A stretch of 64,000 nucleotides of DNA from Octopus sinensis (Eukaryota). The notes beneath the pieces were generated by a model. The model saw nothing but the letters and a program-made list of their open reading frames with translations. It had not been told where the DNA came from and did no database searches. Below are positions 207 to 54,107 of the stretch, one piece after another; positions within the stretch are counted from its first letter, which is position 1, and each line of letters opens with the position of its first letter. Position numbers and translations under genes: made by a program. The stretch covers positions 62,000,001 through 62,064,000 of the forward strand of contig NC_043003.1 in the NCBI RefSeq assembly GCF_006345805.1. Direction: 5' to 3'.

Positions 207-2809
207 ACTGCAACAATAAATAAAATCATGAAAACCTGGCATTACATAATGGTCTTTCCATAGCATCATAGCATCTGTTTATCTATAATCTTTCAATGTG
301 AATATTTTTTTTTGAACTGAATAATAATAGAAAGAAAGAAAAATTGAAGAAATAGAACTATATAGACTATGTACAATGTCTTTGCTCCATCATTGAATAT
401 GTTTTAGGAATATTGTATTTGAAATTCACATATCATCAATTTGAAAAGTTTGTTGTCATTGCACTCATTGCAATTTTTTAATGTTATACTTTTTCATATT
501 GTTATGGGTTGGATGAGTCTATATTATGTAAAATCATCACTTCTGATCCTGGGTTATTTCATCAGTGTCACCAGGGATTTCACTTCATCCTCATGTGTCC
601 GTACTCTGACAATCATTTCTTCTGCATTCAGCAGTTAATGTTTCTAAGGTCCAGTCACTATTTCAGCTGACTTGTGCTCTGCCTTTCATGCAAGTTAATA
701 TTACACATCTTGCTAGCTATATTCAAATTATTTATATATTTGTAAAACTTTCACATTTGATGTCCATAGCTTACTACCAGTGTAATCTTACATTACTTAC
801 ACAAAAACAGAAAGCCCTATGTTTAACTTCTCTCACCTCTGCGTTGCCCTAGCTACTATACTTCACAACAACACTCATATTACTAACTAGGTCATCTTCA
901 TAACTGAAATGATCTACAAGATCTAGCAATTCTTTGACAAATTCCTAATGCTAATTATGCTCGTGTATTTAAGGCAGTCAGTTAGAGTTCTCATTGCATC
1001 TTGTATACATTAATGCTTTTCATTAAGTCCATTTCCTTATGTAGATGAGCTTCAAAAGGATATGCATGCAACAGAAATATATCAATATCTTGCCAAAGTA
1101 ATAGATTACTAATCAGAACTAGCGGATGTATCATACATGAAGATAGAAGACAAGAAACACTAAAGTGCTTAGATATCTAGCATAGAGAGAAAAACTTAAC
1201 ATTCATGGAAAATCCTCGCTTGCACCATGTACAGCAATATTTTAAAAGGTTATTTGCATTATCATTCTTAATACACTACACAGGTTCAAATGCAAAATAT
1301 GCTGTTCACTTTTTTGTACATCATAGAAGAATATTTTCCATTTATGACAACAGTGTGCTCATAACACAACTGGCTCTTTATGGTACAGTATTCTGGGATA
1401 CCAGTATTTTGATGTGTTATGTCTTATCAGCCCGAGGCACCCAAGCATCTCAGAATCCCATGTGACAATGAACAGAATATGTTATGAACACATTGTTGTC
1501 ATAAAAGCGAGATGTTGTTATTATATGGTGTACACTACAGCCACCACCATATTTTGCATTTGAACCTGCCTGGACTGATCAAGAATGAATATGCAAATAC
1601 TCATTTAATATTCTTGAATACAATAAAAAGAATACTAACTTGTTGCAATGATATGAGATACAGCTAAGCAAACTCATCTGTTCAAGATATCATGGCTTTT
1701 AAAAGTTTATATGAAAGCTTTTAGAAATTTAGAAATATAAAATACTTGAGTGCTCAAATAGCAGAAACGAGTATTGCTCACATTTTGCCTTAGTTTGTTA
1801 AAGGCTAATGTCCATGGGTTAAGCTACAGGATTATGATGTTTTGCAGTTAATACTCATGTCAGTTATGCACCATGTCCAGATTATTTGATTATTTCATTT
1901 AAAAAATTGAGAAATCATTTCCAAAATCTTCTTTTATGAACAATTTTTAAATGATCAGATAATTAAAATTAATTTCCATTTTAAGGTGATGTCAAACTGG
2001 CTGATTATATGAGTTATTTTCTAAGTTATGAATCAATAAATTTCATCTTATAGATGTTGTATGATCCTTGGATATGGCATTTGACTTAGTATTGTTGTTC
2101 TTTTTTTAAAGATATTCTTAGTTGTAAGAACTTCCCTTCTTTCATTTATGCAATCACTGTTCTAGTTTTCATACTATATACTGTATTCAAGTTGGTTGTG
2201 ACAATATTATAAATAAATAACATGCACTACAATACTATAAATAAATAACATGCACTACACCTGCCTCTCTCTTCCTCATACACTCCTGCAGCCTACCCAA
2301 CTACATGTCATCTCTCTCATGCTTCTCTTGGTTACTGTTTCATCATTTCTATTCTGCTTCTCTCCCCAGCTTTTTCTTCACTGTCAGTCATATCCTATTT
2401 CTCCCACCTTCCCCAACTCTAGCATTATTGGTCATCCTCACCCCTTGTCCACCTTTCTCTACATCTACCCTTCAATACTACCCAATCTTTATATTTGTTG
2501 CCCACCTCCAACACCTGTTCTCCCTTCTCTTACTCTCCCATTCACTCTTGCAATTTCCACCCACTCACCCAACCACACTCCTGGTCCCTCTGTCCCACTC
2601 ACTTCTATTTTCCTTGTACCTTGAAGCTCTATCTAGACACCTCATCCCACTATTTTTATCTCTTTTGAGCTTCACCTGATCACTCTTCTAAAATGTGAGT
2701 TGTACTGTACAGCAAGAAATCTGTTCTGCCCTTGTCCCTCCTTTCATACTTTAACCTATCTCCTAGCATAAAACCATTCTCTCAGAGTTGATAGTTTTAT
2801 TAGTTGTGA

Positions 2810-5147: not shown

Positions 5148-6235
5148 ACAGAGAGAGAGAGAGAGATTGAGAAAGAAAAGGAGAGAGATACTGATTACTT
5201 TTGTCTTGCCAACTGCCTTGAATATGTTTTACTGATGAGATTTTATCATCAAAATATGACCATGGCTCTTACTAGTTAGTTTTAAATGGAACATCATCGC
5301 CAAATAGCATTTCTTAATGGATTGTGTCAGCTTAATTTCGTGTCACACTTCTTTTAGAAGCACAGTGTGACACTTCTCTAAGAAATATACTTGTATTTCA
5401 ACTTCCCCTGTTAGGAACATGACAGATACAGTGAGATTCCTTGTAACTGTCTCACAGTTTTTGATGATCCCTTATGGCCATGCCACATATCACAAAATGA
5501 AAGATTTCCCATAATCACCATGAAATACTTCAATATTGTTTAATTGCTAATCTCCTATATAACCAGTGAAATTTACACTATAGCTCTGCTCACATGCTTG
5601 GAATGCTGTTGCTGCTGTTACATGCACAAACACTGTAGTCAGTATCCTGCCCCCCAACTCCACCCAAAGAACCATTTTTATGACTGGAAAAACTCAGTGA
5701 CCAATATGTTTCACACAAGCCTGCAGACATACTTTTTCATTTATTTGTCTTGTTTTCCTTTATTGCTACTACAGTGGTGTTTTCTTCTCTAAACCAGATA
5801 GTTATCTAAACTAGATAACTGGATACCCTCTCTATACAGACTTATTTGTCTTATGCCTCTCTCTTATATATTTTTATACACACATATACACATGTATGTG
5901 TGTGTAAATATAGATGTATTATTTTGTTTTGATTTTAAAATAGAACAATAATAATAAATGTGTTAGTTGTAAATATCTTGTGGTTAGATGCAATTTTTCA
6001 GTTTTAATGTTAATCTACTTTTGAAATATTTTCAGTTCTATTAATGATTATGCCTTTCCTCCTCACATTAACTAAACTATAATTTAACATCTTAACATCT
6101 AATTTCTAATGGAAATATCTACATTTTTGGTGAACTTTGCCGTTTCATTTTTGAAATAATTGTTTAACTTAATTATTTCTATTTTGATATATTATTGAAT
6201 ACAATTCTTTATTACAACACACATTTCTATTGCAG

Positions 6236-6344
6236 GGATATCTACTATCAGAATGTTAACTGCTTTAAGACACAATCTGTTCTTGACACTTTACTTAACA
6301 ATATATCCCACTTACTGGAAGTGCCTCGTTGGGATCTACATGTT
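6236..6344 (+). CDS. SPO11: SPO11 internal exon (equivalent to vertebrate exon 5), winged-helix domain with catalytic tyrosine
   Basis: Acceptor tttctattgcag|, donor |gtaagt, 109 nt. Translates (R)DIYYQNVNCFKTQSVLDTLLNNISHLLEVPRWDLHV, matching SPO11 RDIYY...F..Q..VD..I.DIS..L.V.R..LHI. YY codons at 6243-6248. Confidence 0.96.
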
Positions 6345-9300
6345 GTAAGTTACATTTGTTATTTGTAATGACAATTTTCATGTAATGTTAATTGGGATAT
6401 TGCAAACTTATTCCATACTCAAAAAAGGCTCTCATAAAAGTGTCTATGTAAAGTAACTAGACATTTTCAAAAACATTCAACTCTTTCATGACTGTATTTT
6501 TTAAACTTTTAGTTAATTTAGATAATAACAAAAAATTTAAAAGGCTTTAGTAAAAAGCTTGTTGCTGTTCAGAGCATAACAAAGGAATGTTATCTTAAGT
6601 TCTGATGGAAGATTTTAAGCTAAATGTGACTAATTTAAAATGGGTTTTGTATCAAATAATTAGGTTGGCATCAAAGAGATAGAAGTTTGATCTATACAGT
6701 AACCCTTAATTATAAAATATTAGTATTTATTTTGTAAAAATTCAGTTTTAATTGAAATTATCATTCTGAAGTCTTTTCCATAGATTGTAGTGCAGTTCGT
6801 TTGCTTCTATTCTTAATACTTATTTCTCTTCATCAACACTTATATTCACTTTTTGTTATCTTATGAGTAAATAAGGTTAAGCTCTTTTTGTAAGAAGCAT
6901 TTTAGACACCTGTTAGCAAGTACTTATGTATTTGTAAATTTGTCAGTGTGATGCAGGTTAATCATTAATTAATGTGTGTTTTCTTAAAACACAGTCTAGA
7001 CCATGAGTAAACTTTGCTAAGCTGTATCTCAGCATTACAAAGAGTGAGAAAATATATATTTTCAGAAGTTGTCTATCCATCTACAAACATTGTTTAGAGT
7101 ATCATTGTAAACAGACATTTACAAAATCTGCTTCCCTTAAGCCGCCATTCATAGAATTATGCTCATCATGGTTTATCTTTAGTAAATAGATAAGAACTGA
7201 TATATTACTTTCTTTGTTTCTACTTACTAATGGTGATTAACCTATTATTTCATGTCTGCTTGTGCTTTCAAACCATACATTTTTCTTCATAACAACTGAC
7301 AACTGAAAATAATAATTTTAACACTTAGTTGTTTTCAGTTATTATACCAATAAATCTTCCCTGCTTTTTTTTGTTAACATTAACAAACATTGTATTCAGT
7401 TAGAATCTTATGTAATCCCATACAGAAAATGAACTTTAATCTTTAGTTTAATATAGAAAGAATATATAGTTTGAGACAATATTTAATGTCTTTTTATACA
7501 AAGTCATATTTTTTATGGATCTTAGATAGTTATTTTGTTACCCATTAATAATTTAGACACCTCAGAGTTTTGACAAAGAAAGTGGGTGTTCTTGACATGA
7601 TGTCACTTCCTCCTGACACTTCTTGTCTTTCCTAGCTCTTAGTCCTCATCTCCCTGCTATTCTCCATACCATGTTAGCCCTCAAAGAGGAATTTAGGTCA
7701 ATATCGTTGATATTCAGATATTTTTGTATGCCAATGTTTTAGGAAAAATTGTTAGGGTGCAGTTAGAGAAAGTATTGGGAAAGTGTTTAGCATGAGAGTT
7801 CTGTGAGGTGCTATTAAACAATATGCATAACAAGGAAAAGAGAGGTGAGATAATCATGTGTCTGAGTGAGGTTAGTGTACAATTGGAATATGAGTAACAA
7901 TGTATGGTTTATCTTAGATCTGTATTAAGTATCTGATAGATTTTACAAGAATAAATCAATAATAAATCAGCTGTTCTGCATTTTGAGATACACTTTTTAA
8001 TTTTGAGTTTGCACTTTTATTTTCTAGCTTTTATAAAATTTGCCTTCATTGCCACTTTTTCTAAGTCATATGATTAAACAGATTAGTTCCAACATTCGTA
8101 CTATCATGTTTAATAGATGTGTTAGCTTATGAACTACTACTATTTAGTAACCAACAATGAAGGAACTTTTGTATGGTTGCTTGACAGAGTCATATTTCTT
8201 TCAAATTACATGCTATTCTTTTAAAAATGGGAAGTCTCACTGGATTGTCCAGAGTCATAACTGGAATTTCTTTTATCATAAATCTACTCAGTCAGGTCAA
8301 ACATGCTGTAAATAACAAACTAATGGCTATAACATTCCTTCTCTTAGAAGTGGCACAGATACCTTTTAATCATGGCTATCTCAGATCATCTGTTTTTAAT
8401 AAGGCACTTGAGCTTTTAATATTTATTTCGTAAATCACATTTATCTCATCATTTTTAGATGTATTCTAAATTTTGTAGTTTTACTACTGGTTTAATTTTT
8501 TTCAGTCTGCTACACTTCAAATAATTTTAGCATTAAAAAGTATATAAAATTTTTATATGAAAATAAATTCTTTAACATCATACAGAGATGCATTTTCTCA
8601 ATAAATTCTTTTTAATAATTTACTTTTAAATTTCTAATAAATGTCCAATATTAGAGATATGCCCGTTTGTTTGAGTATAAAAAATTTTCATATTAAAATC
8701 ATGACTGAAATTGTTTTTGTTATTTTTTATCAGTGTTTCTTAAAATGATAATATGAAAAACCTTAAATAAACAAAGTTGCACTTATATTTAAATGATTAT
8801 AATTAACTGCTTTCTTAATAATTTGAAGTTTTGAGAAATGAATCTATATTTCATTATGAATTTTAAATAAATGGAAAATTTGTTGCAGATTTGTTGAACC
8901 ATAGGTGGCATCAAAATTTTGATGTTATATATGGTTCAAGAAACCTAGATCTAATTTAATACATATGATTAAAGATTTTACATCAAATTAAAAAATATTA
9001 ACTAGACTCAGCCACTGAATTTTAGTTTGTATATTTGATATATTTTTATATTGGTGAAACATTTTATGCAACATGCATATTTTTAATATATTCTTTTATA
9101 AAGGAGTATAAGGAATAAATTTCTATCAATTGAAATACTAAATTAAAAAGGACAAATTTCCATAAGTAACATATTCTTATATTTTTTATTTGACAATTTG
9201 CATTTTGTTATTTTTCTCATGAAAAATATCAGATATTACTTTAATGCTGTTAAAGGCAACAACAATTTCCTATTATGAATCACCACTTGTTATGTTCTTT

Positions 9301-35400: not shown

Positions 35401-35755
35401 GGGACATTGAATTGTGAAAATATTTTCTTACAGTGAACATACTACACCAAAATTAAGAATTCCTCAAGAACTTTCTTGACAACCTAATACCTCTTCACAA
35501 TTGAATGGATAGTGGGTAATAAGCAGCCTCTACCATTCTGTAAAATTACTTATAAGAATATAAAAATAACCAAATGGAAAACTTAATGTAAATTGTAAAA
35601 ACTGTAATTCAATTTCCATTGTCTTTTTACATTTTTTACTCACTTTTGACTTGGTAGTTATTATAGAAAATAAAGATAAATTTTATCATTTAAATATATA
35701 TATATTAGGGACAAATACATATATGTATATATCGATGACTTCCTACCTACCAACA

Positions 35756-36127
35756 AATCTGCTGGAATGTATTAAGAATGAAAATACAAGTCATTGTTTT
35801 TGATTCTTGCTGTTCACTGTGCATATGATGATTTATTATCAGTTGGAAGTTATAAGCATGCATCAGCAAATAATCTGTTTGCTGAAGTTATAAACAAAAG
35901 CCCCAAGCTCTTGCTAGATTAATTAGTCCATGGAGGCTTTGGCTGATGAAACACAATGATGTTGAAACATTGAGTGTCCCAAAGTCCCCTTATGCTAATT
36001 AACAGAGTGTTATGATCACATATTTGTCTAAAATGACAGGTTGCTCTCCAATGACAAAATACTAAAGCGTTTAGCATATTCATGTCTGAATCTGCTGGAA
36101 TGTATTAAGAATGAATATACAAGTCAT
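35756..36127 (+). mobile_element. Retrozyme-like / Penelope pLTR-like unit, 333-bp period with 39-bp terminal direct repeat
   Basis: aatctgctggaatgtattaagaatgaa(a/t)atacaagtcat at 35756-35794 and 36089-36127 (1 mismatch), enclosing the hammerhead. Confidence 0.65.
35935..35986 (+). ncRNA. Type I hammerhead ribozyme, core intact
   Basis: GGCTTTGG-CTGATGA-AACA caatga TGTT-GAAA-CAT tga GTG-TC^-CCAAAGTC. Stem I 8 bp (one GU), stem II 4 bp, stem III 4 bp, GUC cleavage triplet ending at 35978. Stem I extends via ttaattag (35919-35926) / ctaattaa (35995-36002). Confidence 0.85.
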
Positions 36128-36176
36128 CATTTATAAGTATATATTCACACATATTTTTGTATATATGTATATGCAT

Positions 36177-50027: not shown

Positions 50028-52217
50028 ACACACACACACACACACAAACAAACATTTACAAATGTACACACAGGTAATCACGAGTTTAAAATAGTGTATA
50101 GTAGACATATGTATGTACATATGTATGTATATATATGTACATGTGTGTCTGTGTGTGAGTGTTTCTTTGCAATGGACAGCAGAAAAGCCACCTTCTCCTT
50201 CTCTCCTTAAAGCTACGTATTCCTCACACCCACCTTTCCCTTCCTCAGCATGTTAAAAGTTATTTATGTGCATGTGTGCGTGTGTGTGCATGTGTGTATG
50301 TATGCATGTATCTATGTATTTACAGAAGTATGTGTGCAGTAAAAGTGAATGACAGCTGTATTAATGTTATCATCCCATTGTTACTCCATTTTTGTTGCTT
50401 ACACAATTCTGTTCTCCCCTTCCCAGTCACACTCACTCTGCTACTACATTTCTCTCACACCAACACTCTTTGCAGCTTTCTCATTTTATCATATAATAGC
50501 CCCACCCCTCCCAAGGAGCCCATTATAGATTTTTATTCAAATCTAACTAGTCTGTAATTGAACTGGATATTAGTTTAACATGTATGCAAAGTTTTGTCTA
50601 GATTGGTTCACTGGTGTAGGCATCAAGATGTTAACAAACAAAAATTGCCATTTATGTATAAGATATATATATATATATATTATGTATGTATACACGCTGC
50701 ATAATGGCTGACATTAGAAAAGGCATTGAGTTATAGAAACCAAGTCAAAATTGGAAGTTATGAACGAAGTCTGGACCTACTGTCATATATGTATGTATAC
50801 ATGCATGCAAACTCTGATTAAAAACAGACTTAGATGTTGACCTGTCAAACCCATATCGCCATTGAAAGCAGATGTTAGATAGTGATGATTATGATGATAC
50901 ATGTGTCTCCTCCTCTCTTTTTCTCCTCTCTCTCTCTCTCTCCCTCTCTGTATGGGCATCCAAATGTAGAAGCCATACCAAAACAGACAATGGAGCCTGG
51001 TGCAGCACCTGGTCTTGCTAGATCCTGTCAAACTATCCAACCCATACCAGCATGGAAATTAACTTCAAATGATGACAACGAGGATGATACACACACACAC
51101 ACACACACACACCACACACACACACACAAACAAACATTTACAAATGTACACACAGGTAATCACGAGTTTAAAATAGTGTATAGTAGACATATGTATGTAC
51201 ATATGTATGTATATATATGTACATGTGTGTCTGTGTGTGAGTGTTTCTTTGCAATGGACAGCAGAAAAGCCACCTTCTCCTTCTCTCCTTAAAGCTACGT
51301 ATTCCTCACACCCACCTTTCCCTTCCTCAGCATGTTAAAAGTTATTTATGTGCATGTGTGCGTGTGTGTGCATGTGTGTATGTATGCATGTATCTATGTA
51401 TTTACAGAAGTATGTGTGCAGTAAAAGTGAATGACAGCTGTATTAATGTTATCATCCCATTGTTACTCCATTTTTGTTGCTTACACAATTCTGTTCTCCC
51501 CTTCCCAGTCACACTCACTCTGCTACTACATTTCTCTCACACCAACACTCTTTGCAGCTTTCTCATTTTATCATATAATAGCCCCACCCCTCCCAAGGAG
51601 CCCATTATAGATTTTTATTCAAATCTAACTAGTCTGTAATTGAACTGGATATTAGTTTAACATGTATGCAAAGTTTTGTCTAGATTGGTTCACTGGTGTA
51701 GGCATCAAGATGTTAACAAACAAAAATTGCCATTTATGTATAAGATATATATATATATATATGTATGTATACACGCTGCATAATGGCTGACATTAGAAAA
51801 GGCATTGAGTTATAGAAACCAAGTCAAAATTGGAAGTTATGAACGAAGTCTGGACCTACTGTCATATATGTATGTATACATGCATGCAAACTCTGATTAA
51901 AAACAGACTTAGATGTTGACCTGTCAAACCCATATCGCCATTGAAAGCAGATGTTAGATAGTGATGATTATGATGATACATGTGTCTCCTCCTCTCTTTT
52001 TCTCCTCTCTCTCTCTCTCTCCCTCTCTGTATGGGCATCCAAATGTAGAAGCCATACCAAAACAGACAATGGAGCCTGGTGCAGCACCTGGTCTTGCTAG
52101 ATCCTGTCAAACTATCCAACCCATACCAGCATGGAAATTAACTTCAAATGATGACAACGAGGATGATACACACACACACATACACACACACACACAACAC
52201 ACACACACACACACACA
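50028..52217. repeat. Near-identical tandem duplication, unit about 1080 bp
   Basis: Identical ORF translations offset by 1082 and 1079 bp (50159/51241; 50783/51862); junctions lie in (CA)n tracts. Confidence 0.95.
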
Positions 52218-54107
52218 TTATAGAATATTACCTGACGAAGTCATCCAAATGGTGCCAGCATTAAAAAATGTACTTAAAAAATTGATGAAGCTGATGAGTT
52301 ATGATGTGTGTATATGTGCCTTCTTCTGTATTACGATTTTAACTTAAACTTAGACATGGAGGAAAGTACAGGTGATTATATTAACCCTGATACTTGATTA
52401 GTATTTATTTTATCGACCTGAGAAGATTAGAAGGCAAAGTCACTCTCAGTAGAATTTAAACTCAGAGAGCAGAGCTTCCATTTCTATCAGTCCACTGTCT
52501 TACTGTCTTTGTGTACATACATATTAATATATGCATATACATTATTATACATAAGTGTGTATGAATGTATATATCTATAGATATAGGTACATTTATGCAA
52601 TACTTATGTGATCATGAAGTATAATATTGTTTATGAGACGTTTTAATTTGCCACCTTACGTACCTGATTTCAATTTTTAATGATGTCAATTTTGTTTCCT
52701 TTTTATTTATGTTAATTTTTTGTGAGAGAATTTGCATTATCTAAAACGAATATTATGATGCACTGGAGATCTGAGATTCTGATATTTTTATAGTTTATTG
52801 ATTTCAATGTTTTCTTTAAACTAAAAAAAATGACATTAGGATATCGTGGATGCAAGTGATTCAACATTTAGGTTAAACTTTCTTTGATATGAAAATAATT
52901 TTTAATCTATTGAATTAATTTTCATCATACTAATATATCTAGACCATGTAAAGAGTTGTGGACCTCAGTAGCTTGTTTTGTTAATTTATTATGCTGTTTC
53001 ATTATTTTTCTCTATGTGTGTATTTCATTGTGAAGGTTAGTAGGAATTCTTGTCTTCCACAGTCTCATTCTGCTTGATATATTACAAATTTTCTACCTCT
53101 ATTTCAACTTTTTCTGTTGCCAAGCAACTCAAGAAAACTATTGGAAAATTGGTCTTGTGTCTGCTGTGGCTAAATCTGGACTACCATAAAAATGCCATTT
53201 TTTAAAAATTTCTGTATATTTTTTTCATTTCTTTCTCATGATTTTTAAACATTATAATAATTTTTGTTTAGCTTTGTAACAAAACTTGCTTTGTTCTCTG
53301 TAATATTTTCTCTCATTCTTGTTAGATTTCTACTTGGTTTGGAATTTGTGTAGAACTCCAGTTTGCTTCTCTTACTCATTCTTTTTCTATTCTTCTTTTG
53401 ATGCTACGTTTTTGGTCTCCTTGATAATTGAAAGGTAGGAAAGTCAGAAAGACAAACATTTGTGTTTTATATATTGAAACAAACATATTACACTAAATTT
53501 TATATATGTTTTGTAAACACAGGGGAAAAGTTAATTAAAATCATGAAATAGAAGTGAAATTTTAGAGTATCAAATTTTATCAAACTACAACATGAATTGA
53601 TATCTCAGGAAATTATAATATAATGATGAAAAAGAATTTAAAAGTATTCAAAAAGTCCATTTATAATTGAAATAGTTTCTCATTGAAAAATATAGTAAAT
53701 TACTTTTAAATTACTACAGCAAAACATATTTTTATCAAAAAAGCAGGCCAGCATATGTATAGATATAAACATGCACATGCACACACACACACACACACAC
53801 ATGCAAACACACTCTCTCTCCCCTCACTCTCTCATGTAATAATTTCTTTCATGATGGTGGCATGATTAAACTTAACCAATGTACTCTGTAAGATATACGT
53901 AAAACTTAAGTTGGTTGGTTTTCTGTGTTGCTGTGTGAGCAAGTGACAACTCATCCAACCCAAGTCAGCATTGAATGATAAATATAAAATGAAGATGATC
54001 AAATGATGGTGCATGTGTGTGTATGTATATACATACATGAACTTGATACATACATATGTATATGTGTGTGTGTGTATATGCGTGTGTGTATGTGTGTGTA
54101 TGTATGA

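What the first reader, a model, noticed from the sequence alone, without database searches (positions are those of the whole stretch)
35756..36127. 333-nt terminally redundant unit around the hammerhead: candidate cephalopod retrozyme / circular RNA
Seen: a 39-bp direct repeat (1 mismatch) brackets a non-coding 333-bp period with a single hammerhead in the middle, no ORF and no TIRs. Known: non-LTR retrozymes in animals are small hammerhead-containing monomers of a few hundred nt that form circular RNAs and are thought to be mobilised by autonomous retroelement RTs. Inference: 'one monomer plus a short overlap' is the footprint expected from reverse transcription slightly more than once around a 333-nt RNA circle. 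I do not know of a described octopus family matching it.
Basis: partly seen in the sequence, partly recalled or inferred. Interest (0 to 1): 0.8.

Follow-up and report, generated by a model that had tools for sequence, protein, structure and literature searches.

The report
Fossil retrozyme with Penelope insertion signature
This is an old, decayed copy of a dispersed family of 332-base non-coding repeats that carry a predicted self-cleaving hammerhead RNA; the copies end at two fixed points and are often partly inverted, so a Penelope-type retrotransposon enzyme likely pasted them, perhaps from a circular RNA that is not shown here.

Summary
Observation confirmed: 39-bp repeat, 333-bp period, one whole type I hammerhead, no ORF. 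The unit belongs to a dispersed, old family (copies 18-21% from the column majority; roughly 1,000 loci, estimated). The repeat is not a designed terminus or a target duplication. The 3' end is fixed and the 5' end is a random truncation that fell just past one unit. In 57 motif-picked loci, 49 end at one of two sites about 40 nt apart. Lengths run 0.1-2.5 units. About a quarter have an inverted 5' arm, and its two outer ends use different sites in 20 of 24 cases. Copies read through the ribozyme cut site (1 of 31 stops there). These are the hallmarks of Penelope-like elements (tail, truncation, inversion), yet no Penelope ORF is attached. Verdict: a non-LTR retrozyme, likely mobilised in trans by a Penelope-like RT/endonuclease. 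A circular template fits but is not shown; an uncut tandem transcript fits too. This copy has one ribozyme and cannot excise a monomer. A young sister family (352-nt period, 1.6% diverged) has the same anatomy and is the better test object. The scan's look-ups held no note on this DNA.

The parts
35754..36132 (+). Element body, 1.14 turns of a 332-column unit; 5' end is a truncation point, 3' end is at family site 1
   Evidence: circular score-table mapping; alignment
35756..35794 (+). First pass over the repeated 39 nt (upstream turn)
36089..36127 (+). Second pass over the same 39 nt (last turn)
35936..35985 (+). Type I hammerhead: stem I 35936-42/35979-85, core 35943-49, stem II 35950-53/35960-63, GAAA 35964-67, stem III 35968-70/35974-76, predicted cut after 35978
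   Evidence: descriptor; energies; 86% of cells paired in 40 copies, no covariation
35919..36002 (+). Outer extension of stem I (35919-26 with 35995-36002), 8 of 10 family pairs kept
   Evidence: folds; 25 of 25 hammerhead-region pairs form with the commonest letters; window count by hand
36074..36120 (+). Predicted 14-bp hairpin ending 9 nt before site 1; candidate RT recognition element (inferred)
   Evidence: 84.6% of cells paired against 22-51% when slid, no covariation; RNAalifold found no consensus fold
36127..36132 (+). 3' terminus = site 1 (about 36129), 151 nt after the cut site; inferred start of reverse transcription
35835..35839 (+). Position equivalent to site 2 (column 81), internal in this copy; the other family terminus, about 40 nt beyond site 1
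35733..35741 (-). Candidate 9-bp inverted 5' remnant ending at site 1, 12 nt before the body; suggestive only
   Evidence: 14.9 bits, 7 of 1489 null; 5 of 65 upstream against 2 of 65 control flanks reach 12 bits

Best explanation
The stretch is a 5'-truncated, decayed copy of a non-coding 332-nt hammerhead unit (a non-LTR retrozyme) that was likely inserted by the RT/GIY-YIG protein of a Penelope-like element acting in trans. Shown: fixed 3' ends at two sites, scattered 5' ends, read-through of the cut site, inverted arms, no ORF. Inferred steps: (1) a copy with two ribozymes is transcribed, cut to a monomer and probably ligated to a circle; (2) the Penelope protein binds near the hairpin, nicks AT-rich DNA and starts reverse transcription at site 1 or site 2, 151 and about 190 nt after the cut site; (3) RT runs back through the ribozyme and round the unit until it falls off, here 44-46 nt past one turn, which makes the direct repeat; (4) when the second target strand is primed too, the other site is used, which gives an inverted arm and a 40-nt tail at one end only. 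This copy is a dead end: it has one ribozyme. Confidence 0.85 for retrozyme moved by Penelope machinery; about 0.55 that the template was a circle.
For: 3' ends: 49 of 57 motif-picked loci at site 1 (29) or site 2 (20); 19 of 28 in a hammerhead-centred sample against 11% expected; 92 of 116 segments in the similarity-picked sample, medians column 42 and 81. Inverted arm abutting the 5' end in 20 of 86 loci, at the 3' end in 0, and in 15 of 57. Outer ends mixed site 1/site 2 in 12 of 14 and 8 of 10; pooled 20 of 24, two-sided p 0.0015 by my arithmetic. Stops at the cut site: 2 of 76 and 1 of 31; 12 segments pass two cut sites. AT share after 3' ends 76% against 64%. Turns within a locus share the subfamily letter at N7 in 18 of 21 loci (about 53% expected, my arithmetic), and no column differs between last and earlier turns (0 of 251). 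The genome holds RT+GIY-YIG elements, some with open frames of 775-781 aa. A young second family shows the same anatomy. Tail, truncation and inversion are described for Penelope-like elements in PMC8557442; two internal RT starts bounding the tail in PMC11167929.
Against: No autonomous partner found: 0 of 20 Penelope loci carry the unit (one 16-nt, 27-bit scrap), and their 3' regions score under 19 bits. No RNA evidence. No covariation in the ribozyme or hairpin, so function rests on the founder's fold. 0 of 10 two-ribozyme loci keep both cores. The window's repeat is closer than the family's age predicts (simulated P 3e-5 to 8e-4 per locus), so part of it may be later homogenisation. The 9-bp remnant ends at site 1 like the body, against the mixed-site rule. 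The motif-picked sample alone is not significant for mixing (8 of 10, p 0.11).
Confidence: 0.8

Rival explanations
1. Same family and same Penelope machinery, but the template was an uncut linear tandem transcript and no circle was involved.
For: In the Anolis element ribozyme cleavage is not needed and uncut RNA is the main substrate in vitro (PMC11167929). Every end statistic here fits equally. Homogeneous arrays would also give within-locus concordance. No circle junction seen.
Against: No long source array was seen: longest copies are 2.5 turns in this family and 3.2 turns in the sister family; truncation would shorten a purely linear lineage each round (inference). Searches scored only 40 candidates each and arrays assemble badly, so absence is weak. 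Mussel, coral and axolotl retrozymes do form circles (PMC7229834).
Confidence: 0.4
2. Solo pseudo-LTR: 5'-truncated ends of an ordinary autonomous Penelope-like element.
For: All end features are those of Penelope-like elements; autonomous elements here carry a hammerhead 167-169 nt before their 3' microsatellite (L137, L141, L150).
Against: Long copies run into another turn of the same unit, not into coding sequence. tblastn with 12 Penelope frames: 0 hits in 104 loci (7 of them repeats), 0 in ten 10-kb loci and the window, 2 of 57 loci with scraps on the opposite strand 0.7-1.4 kb away; L242's is separated by a SINE-like repeat.
Confidence: 0.07
3. The 39-bp repeat is a local tandem duplication or gene-conversion tract laid on an old insertion, not a product of reverse transcription.
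For: It is the most similar of 45 within-locus overlaps (5 of 46 mismatches against 13.6 expected; family 28.0% against 29.3%), and both passes share four minority letters.
Against: The overlap is in exact phase with the family period, and more-than-unit copies are common. The copy is among the least diverged (13.8%) and was picked for its clean repeat out of many hundreds. The shared letters have family shares of 22-44%. Conversion would explain the closeness, not the existence, of the repeat.
Confidence: 0.2
4. The locus has been kept by selection as a working ribozyme.
For: One of 7 of 88 passes that still fit the full descriptor; two double changes keep pairs.
Against: 24 of 107 passes keep all 11 core letters and 20 of 107 show two or more pair-keeping double changes (the script dropped the window's own row). 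The orthologue in run X10 lacks one of the two compensations (36000). No RNA cover.
Confidence: 0.05

Closest known systems
Metazoan non-LTR retrozymes (Cervera and de la Pena 2020, PMC7229834; mussel units of 350-390 bp)
   Same: Short head-to-tail non-coding units with a type I hammerhead, GC under 45% (34.8% here), a mollusc example, proposed mobilisation by Penelope-like elements.
   Different: Here mostly dispersed 0.1-2.5-turn insertions of an old, decayed family; circles and cleavage untested; fixed 3' sites, inversions and tail were not in the passages I read.
Non-LTR retrozymes as non-autonomous Penelope derivatives (Li, Clavereau, Pollet 2026, bioRxiv 10.64898/2026.07.22.740005)
   Same: Same conclusion on the partner class.
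   Different: Their evidence is co-occurrence and pLTR homology, mainly in vertebrates; the main text holds no 'tail', 'mollus' or 'octopus' and no passage on inversions. Here the evidence is insertion anatomy, and pLTR homology was not found.
EN+ Penelope-like elements (Poseidon_Ac, PMC11167929; structure in PMC8557442)
   Same: Partial tandems, 5' truncation, inverted 5' arm, 30-40-nt tail at one end, two internal RT starts downstream of a hammerhead, AT-rich targets.
   Different: No RT/GIY-YIG ORF; the repeat unit is 332 nt, not 3-4 kb; canonical three-stem hammerhead, not a minimal one.
Non-autonomous Chlamys elements such as MRC1 (PMC8557442)
   Same: Non-autonomous Penelope-like elements with pLTRs and head-to-tail copies.
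   Different: That clade lacks canonical hammerheads and shares 3' sequence with a known autonomous partner; none was found here.

Membership tests
Non-LTR retrozyme | Canonical type I hammerhead in the unit | tested here: met
   Rfam models did not detect it
Non-LTR retrozyme | Head-to-tail unit of about 170-400 nt, GC under 45%, multi-copy | tested here: met
   332-333 nt, GC 34.8%; up to 2.5 turns
Non-LTR retrozyme | No protein-coding frame | tested here: met
   longest stop-free frame 61 aa; no Penelope protein match
Non-LTR retrozyme | 'Active' copy: two consecutive units with complete hammerheads (Li et al. 2026) | tested here: not met
   window copy has one; 0 of 10 two-ribozyme loci keep both cores. 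This is a monomer derivative in their terms; it lowers 'active', not family membership
Non-LTR retrozyme | Expressed as circular RNA | tested here: inconclusive
   one RNA-guessed contig run laid, only paralogue pieces outside the ribozyme; contigs show presence, not absence
Non-LTR retrozyme | Self-cleavage in vitro | not testable with these tools
   bench assay needed
EN+ Penelope-like element (autonomous) | RT plus GIY-YIG ORF | tested here: not met
Penelope-mobilised element | Fixed 3' ends with a 30-40-nt tail, often at one end only | tested here: met
   49 of 57 at two sites about 40 nt apart; mixed ends 20 of 24
Penelope-mobilised element | 5' truncation and inverted 5' arm | tested here: met
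Penelope-mobilised element | AT-rich or microsatellite targets | tested here: inconclusive
   76% against 64% AT after 3' ends, no formal test; no consistent target duplication
Penelope-mobilised element | Sequence shared with the pLTR of an autonomous partner | tested here: inconclusive
   0 of 20 loci drawn from 147 GIY-YIG hits of 5029 candidates, biased to young families
Plant-type LTR retrozyme | Type III hammerhead in LTRs, 4-bp target duplication | tested here: not met
   type I topology; no fixed 5' end or target duplication; PBS and PPT not searched

The most novel reading that the evidence does not exclude
These retrozymes are RNA circles copied by a dimeric Penelope protein that starts at two fixed sites on the circle, one site for each target strand, and rolls past the ligation junction. 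The genomic end structure thus names the long-sought mobiliser of animal retrozymes, and the young 352-nt sister family is a live circular-RNA parasite of Penelope elements in this animal.
Probability: 0.4. Interest if true: 0.68.

Novelty: new member of a known kind. Interest (0 to 1): 0.46.

Why it matters
Which retrotransposon moves animal retrozymes was left open: a 2020 review says the repeats show no motif from which to deduce the partner (PMC7761336), and a 2026 preprint argues for Penelope-like elements from co-occurrence and pLTR similarity. The end structure found here is a direct mechanistic footprint of Penelope-type integration on a protein-free unit, seen in two families of different age. 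It defines the RNA sites to test with purified Penelope protein and offers a 350-nt substrate for the open circle-versus-tandem question. The window copy itself is an ordinary fossil.

Tried and rejected
Rfam: no hammerhead family hit. Covariation in the hammerhead and in the 3' hairpin: none above shuffles; RNAalifold gave no consensus fold; expected for neutrally decayed copies, so no support either way. Within-locus against between-locus divergence as a circle test: uninformative, 28.0% against 29.3% in this family, 114 against 116 mismatches in the sister family (two loci misaligned on a 350-column table). Partner hunt: 20 Penelope loci, flank all-against-all, ten 10-kb loci with odd ends: nothing; odd ends in L204 and L207 are copies split by later insertions. 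Free local alignment of the sister family's 3' region to this family was not significant (68 of 300 shuffles); only the anchored test was. Metagenome pattern scan: 4 hits, matching only 20-31 columns around the motif, rejected. Target-site duplication: rejected, the repeat is unit sequence. A genome-wide covariance-model count was not obtained, so copy number rests on exact-motif counts.

Full report
Observation. The repeat, period and coordinates are as stated. Rfam does not call the ribozyme, and the local minimum-energy fold is an alternative hairpin. A type I hammerhead descriptor (core letters recalled from general knowledge) finds one site in the 64-kb window, 35943-35978, and none in 50 shuffles. 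The commonest letters of the family form 25 of 25 pairs of an extended hammerhead fold, so the founder had it. Copies show no covariation, as expected of neutral decay. The unit has no frame over 61 aa and folds as a circle at -79.4 kcal/mol, z -2.6.

Family. The window lies at G000:C7:62000001-62064000. A DNA search gave 794 candidates, 40 scored, with other copies 67-83% identical and none close. Three more DNA searches gave 86 unique loci. I mapped them on a circular score table of 332 columns (column 1 = 35756, cut after column 222). Median distance from the column majority is 17.7% in this similarity-picked set and 21% in a motif-picked set; the window copy is at 13.8%. Exact motifs occur 18 times (ribozyme) and 64 times (3' region). 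Six of the 64 were already among about 97 loci held, which suggests roughly 1,000 loci; this is a rough estimate. Contigs of run X10 (coded organism E) cross both junctions at about 4% difference, so the insertion predates that split, and the family burst is much older (inference).

Ends. In the 57 new loci picked only by a motif 45 nt upstream of the end, 29 stop at site 1 (mostly columns 37-46) and 20 at site 2 (mostly 78-90), 8 elsewhere (windows 25-55 and 63-97). In 28 hammerhead-centred copies, 19 stop in the two windows against 11% expected (the windows were chosen, and one search is the independent check). The 5' ends are scattered. Lengths run from 0.1 to 1.55 units in the motif set, 11 of 57 over one unit, and up to 2.5 in the other. 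The window copy runs from column 331 round to column 41-44: its 3' end is site 1 and its 5' end is an arbitrary break 44-46 nt past one turn. That is the 39-bp repeat.

Inversions. An inverted arm abuts the 5' end in 20 of 86 loci and the 3' end in none, and in 15 of 57. Where both outer ends could be classed, one is site 1 and the other site 2 in 12 of 14 and 8 of 10. A second, more decayed copy in this window (1210-1606) has the same form. PMC8557442 describes for Penelope-like elements 5' truncation, partial tandems, an inverted 5' copy and a 30-40-bp tail often at one end only. PMC11167929 shows that the tail lies between two internal RT start sites and that the protein extends both target strands. 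The match is close.

Template. Only 2 of 76 and 1 of 31 segments that reach the cut site stop there, and 12 pass two cut sites, so cut linear monomers were not the main template. Turns within a locus share the subfamily letter in 18 of 21 loci, and last and earlier turns do not differ at any of 251 columns. A circle predicts this; so does a homogeneous uncut tandem transcript. I could not separate them. The lack of long arrays favours the circle only weakly. The window copy has one ribozyme and cannot release a monomer, and 0 of 10 two-ribozyme loci keep both cores: the family looks extinct.

Partner. The genome has many RT+GIY-YIG elements (147 matches of 150 scored from 5029 candidates; domains). 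None of 20 fetched loci carries the unit. No Penelope coding sequence is joined to a copy. The class of partner is inferred from anatomy; the partner itself is not identified.

Sister family. A hammerhead found beside a Penelope ORF in L137 belongs to a young family: period 352, 1.6% from the column majority, 218 exact ribozyme-motif hits. It has two 3' sites about 46 nt apart, 172 and about 218 nt after the cut, inverted arms in 14 of 22 loci, and mixed ends in 11 of 12. The query forced one arm to site 2, so this count is biased if site 1 is simply commoner. Its natural cut-to-cut monomer folds as a circle at -129.9 kcal/mol, z -9.8. Its two ends resemble this family's two ends in an anchored test (10.2 and 13.4 bits; 3 and 2 of 352 positions score as high, true sites included), but not in a free alignment. 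This is a hint of shared recognition, not proof.

Against my reading. No RNA evidence: the one RNA-guessed run laid held paralogue pieces only. The 9-bp inverted remnant is suggestive only and breaks the mixed-site rule.

Literature. Searches. None returned a description of an octopus or cephalopod retrozyme, or of tail and inversion signatures on retrozymes; the library lacks most subscription papers and Repbase/Dfam were not searchable. The scan's look-ups gave nothing on this genome or sequence and one rotifer note that did not bear on the reading.

Verdict. Real feature; a new member of a known kind. The copy is a fossil. The value lies in the family-wide Penelope footprint and in the young sister family. 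Interest 0.46.

Noticed in passing
L137:6937-7272 (+); loci L173-L197; three-turn copy L184:1152-2287 (-): Young hammerhead tandem family, period 352, 1.6% diverged, 218 exact motif hits, palindromic stem III, two fixed 3' sites, frequent inverted arms, strongly structured monomer (z -9.8). Same-strand ribozyme pairs 352-353 nt apart at 4 places among the first 100 hits listed. Best candidate for an expressed circular RNA; deserves its own follow-up.
   Followed up: partly
window 1210-1445 (-) and 1448-1606 (+): Second, more decayed copy of the same family, with an inverted arm and outer ends at site 2 and site 1.
   Followed up: yes
L138:6903-7304; L146:6644-7051: A third hammerhead-bearing repeat (88% alike in two loci), unrelated to the two families studied.
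   Followed up: no
L123:2621 = L150:5067; L150:1815: Further descriptor-positive hammerheads of other sequence near Penelope elements.
   Followed up: no
L138:1636-6479; L137:3040-6818; L136, L140, L141: Young RT+GIY-YIG elements with open frames of 775-781 aa and an extra upstream frame (479 aa in L138, 280 aa in L137) without a clear Pfam match; L138 and L140 are 98.7% alike; the L137/L141/L150 type has a minimal hammerhead 167-169 nt before its 3' microsatellite.
   Followed up: partly
L084:1745-2217 and at least 11 other family loci: An abundant 430-470-bp repeat sits in or beside many copies and splits some; it resembles octopus SINEs by recall, not by test.
   Followed up: partly
window 35304-about 35520: High-copy repeat just upstream of the element (very high contig depth at 35450-35517); its start resembles a hAT-type terminal repeat by recall, with no partner end found in the window.
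   Followed up: partly
window about 50100-51140 and 51180-52220: Near-identical direct duplication with a period of about 1080 bp (identical frames at 50159 and 51241); recent duplication or assembly effect.
   Followed up: no
L138:1-1653 and 5934-7591: 1.65-kb direct duplication at 99.3% overlapping the 3' end of the Penelope element.
   Followed up: no
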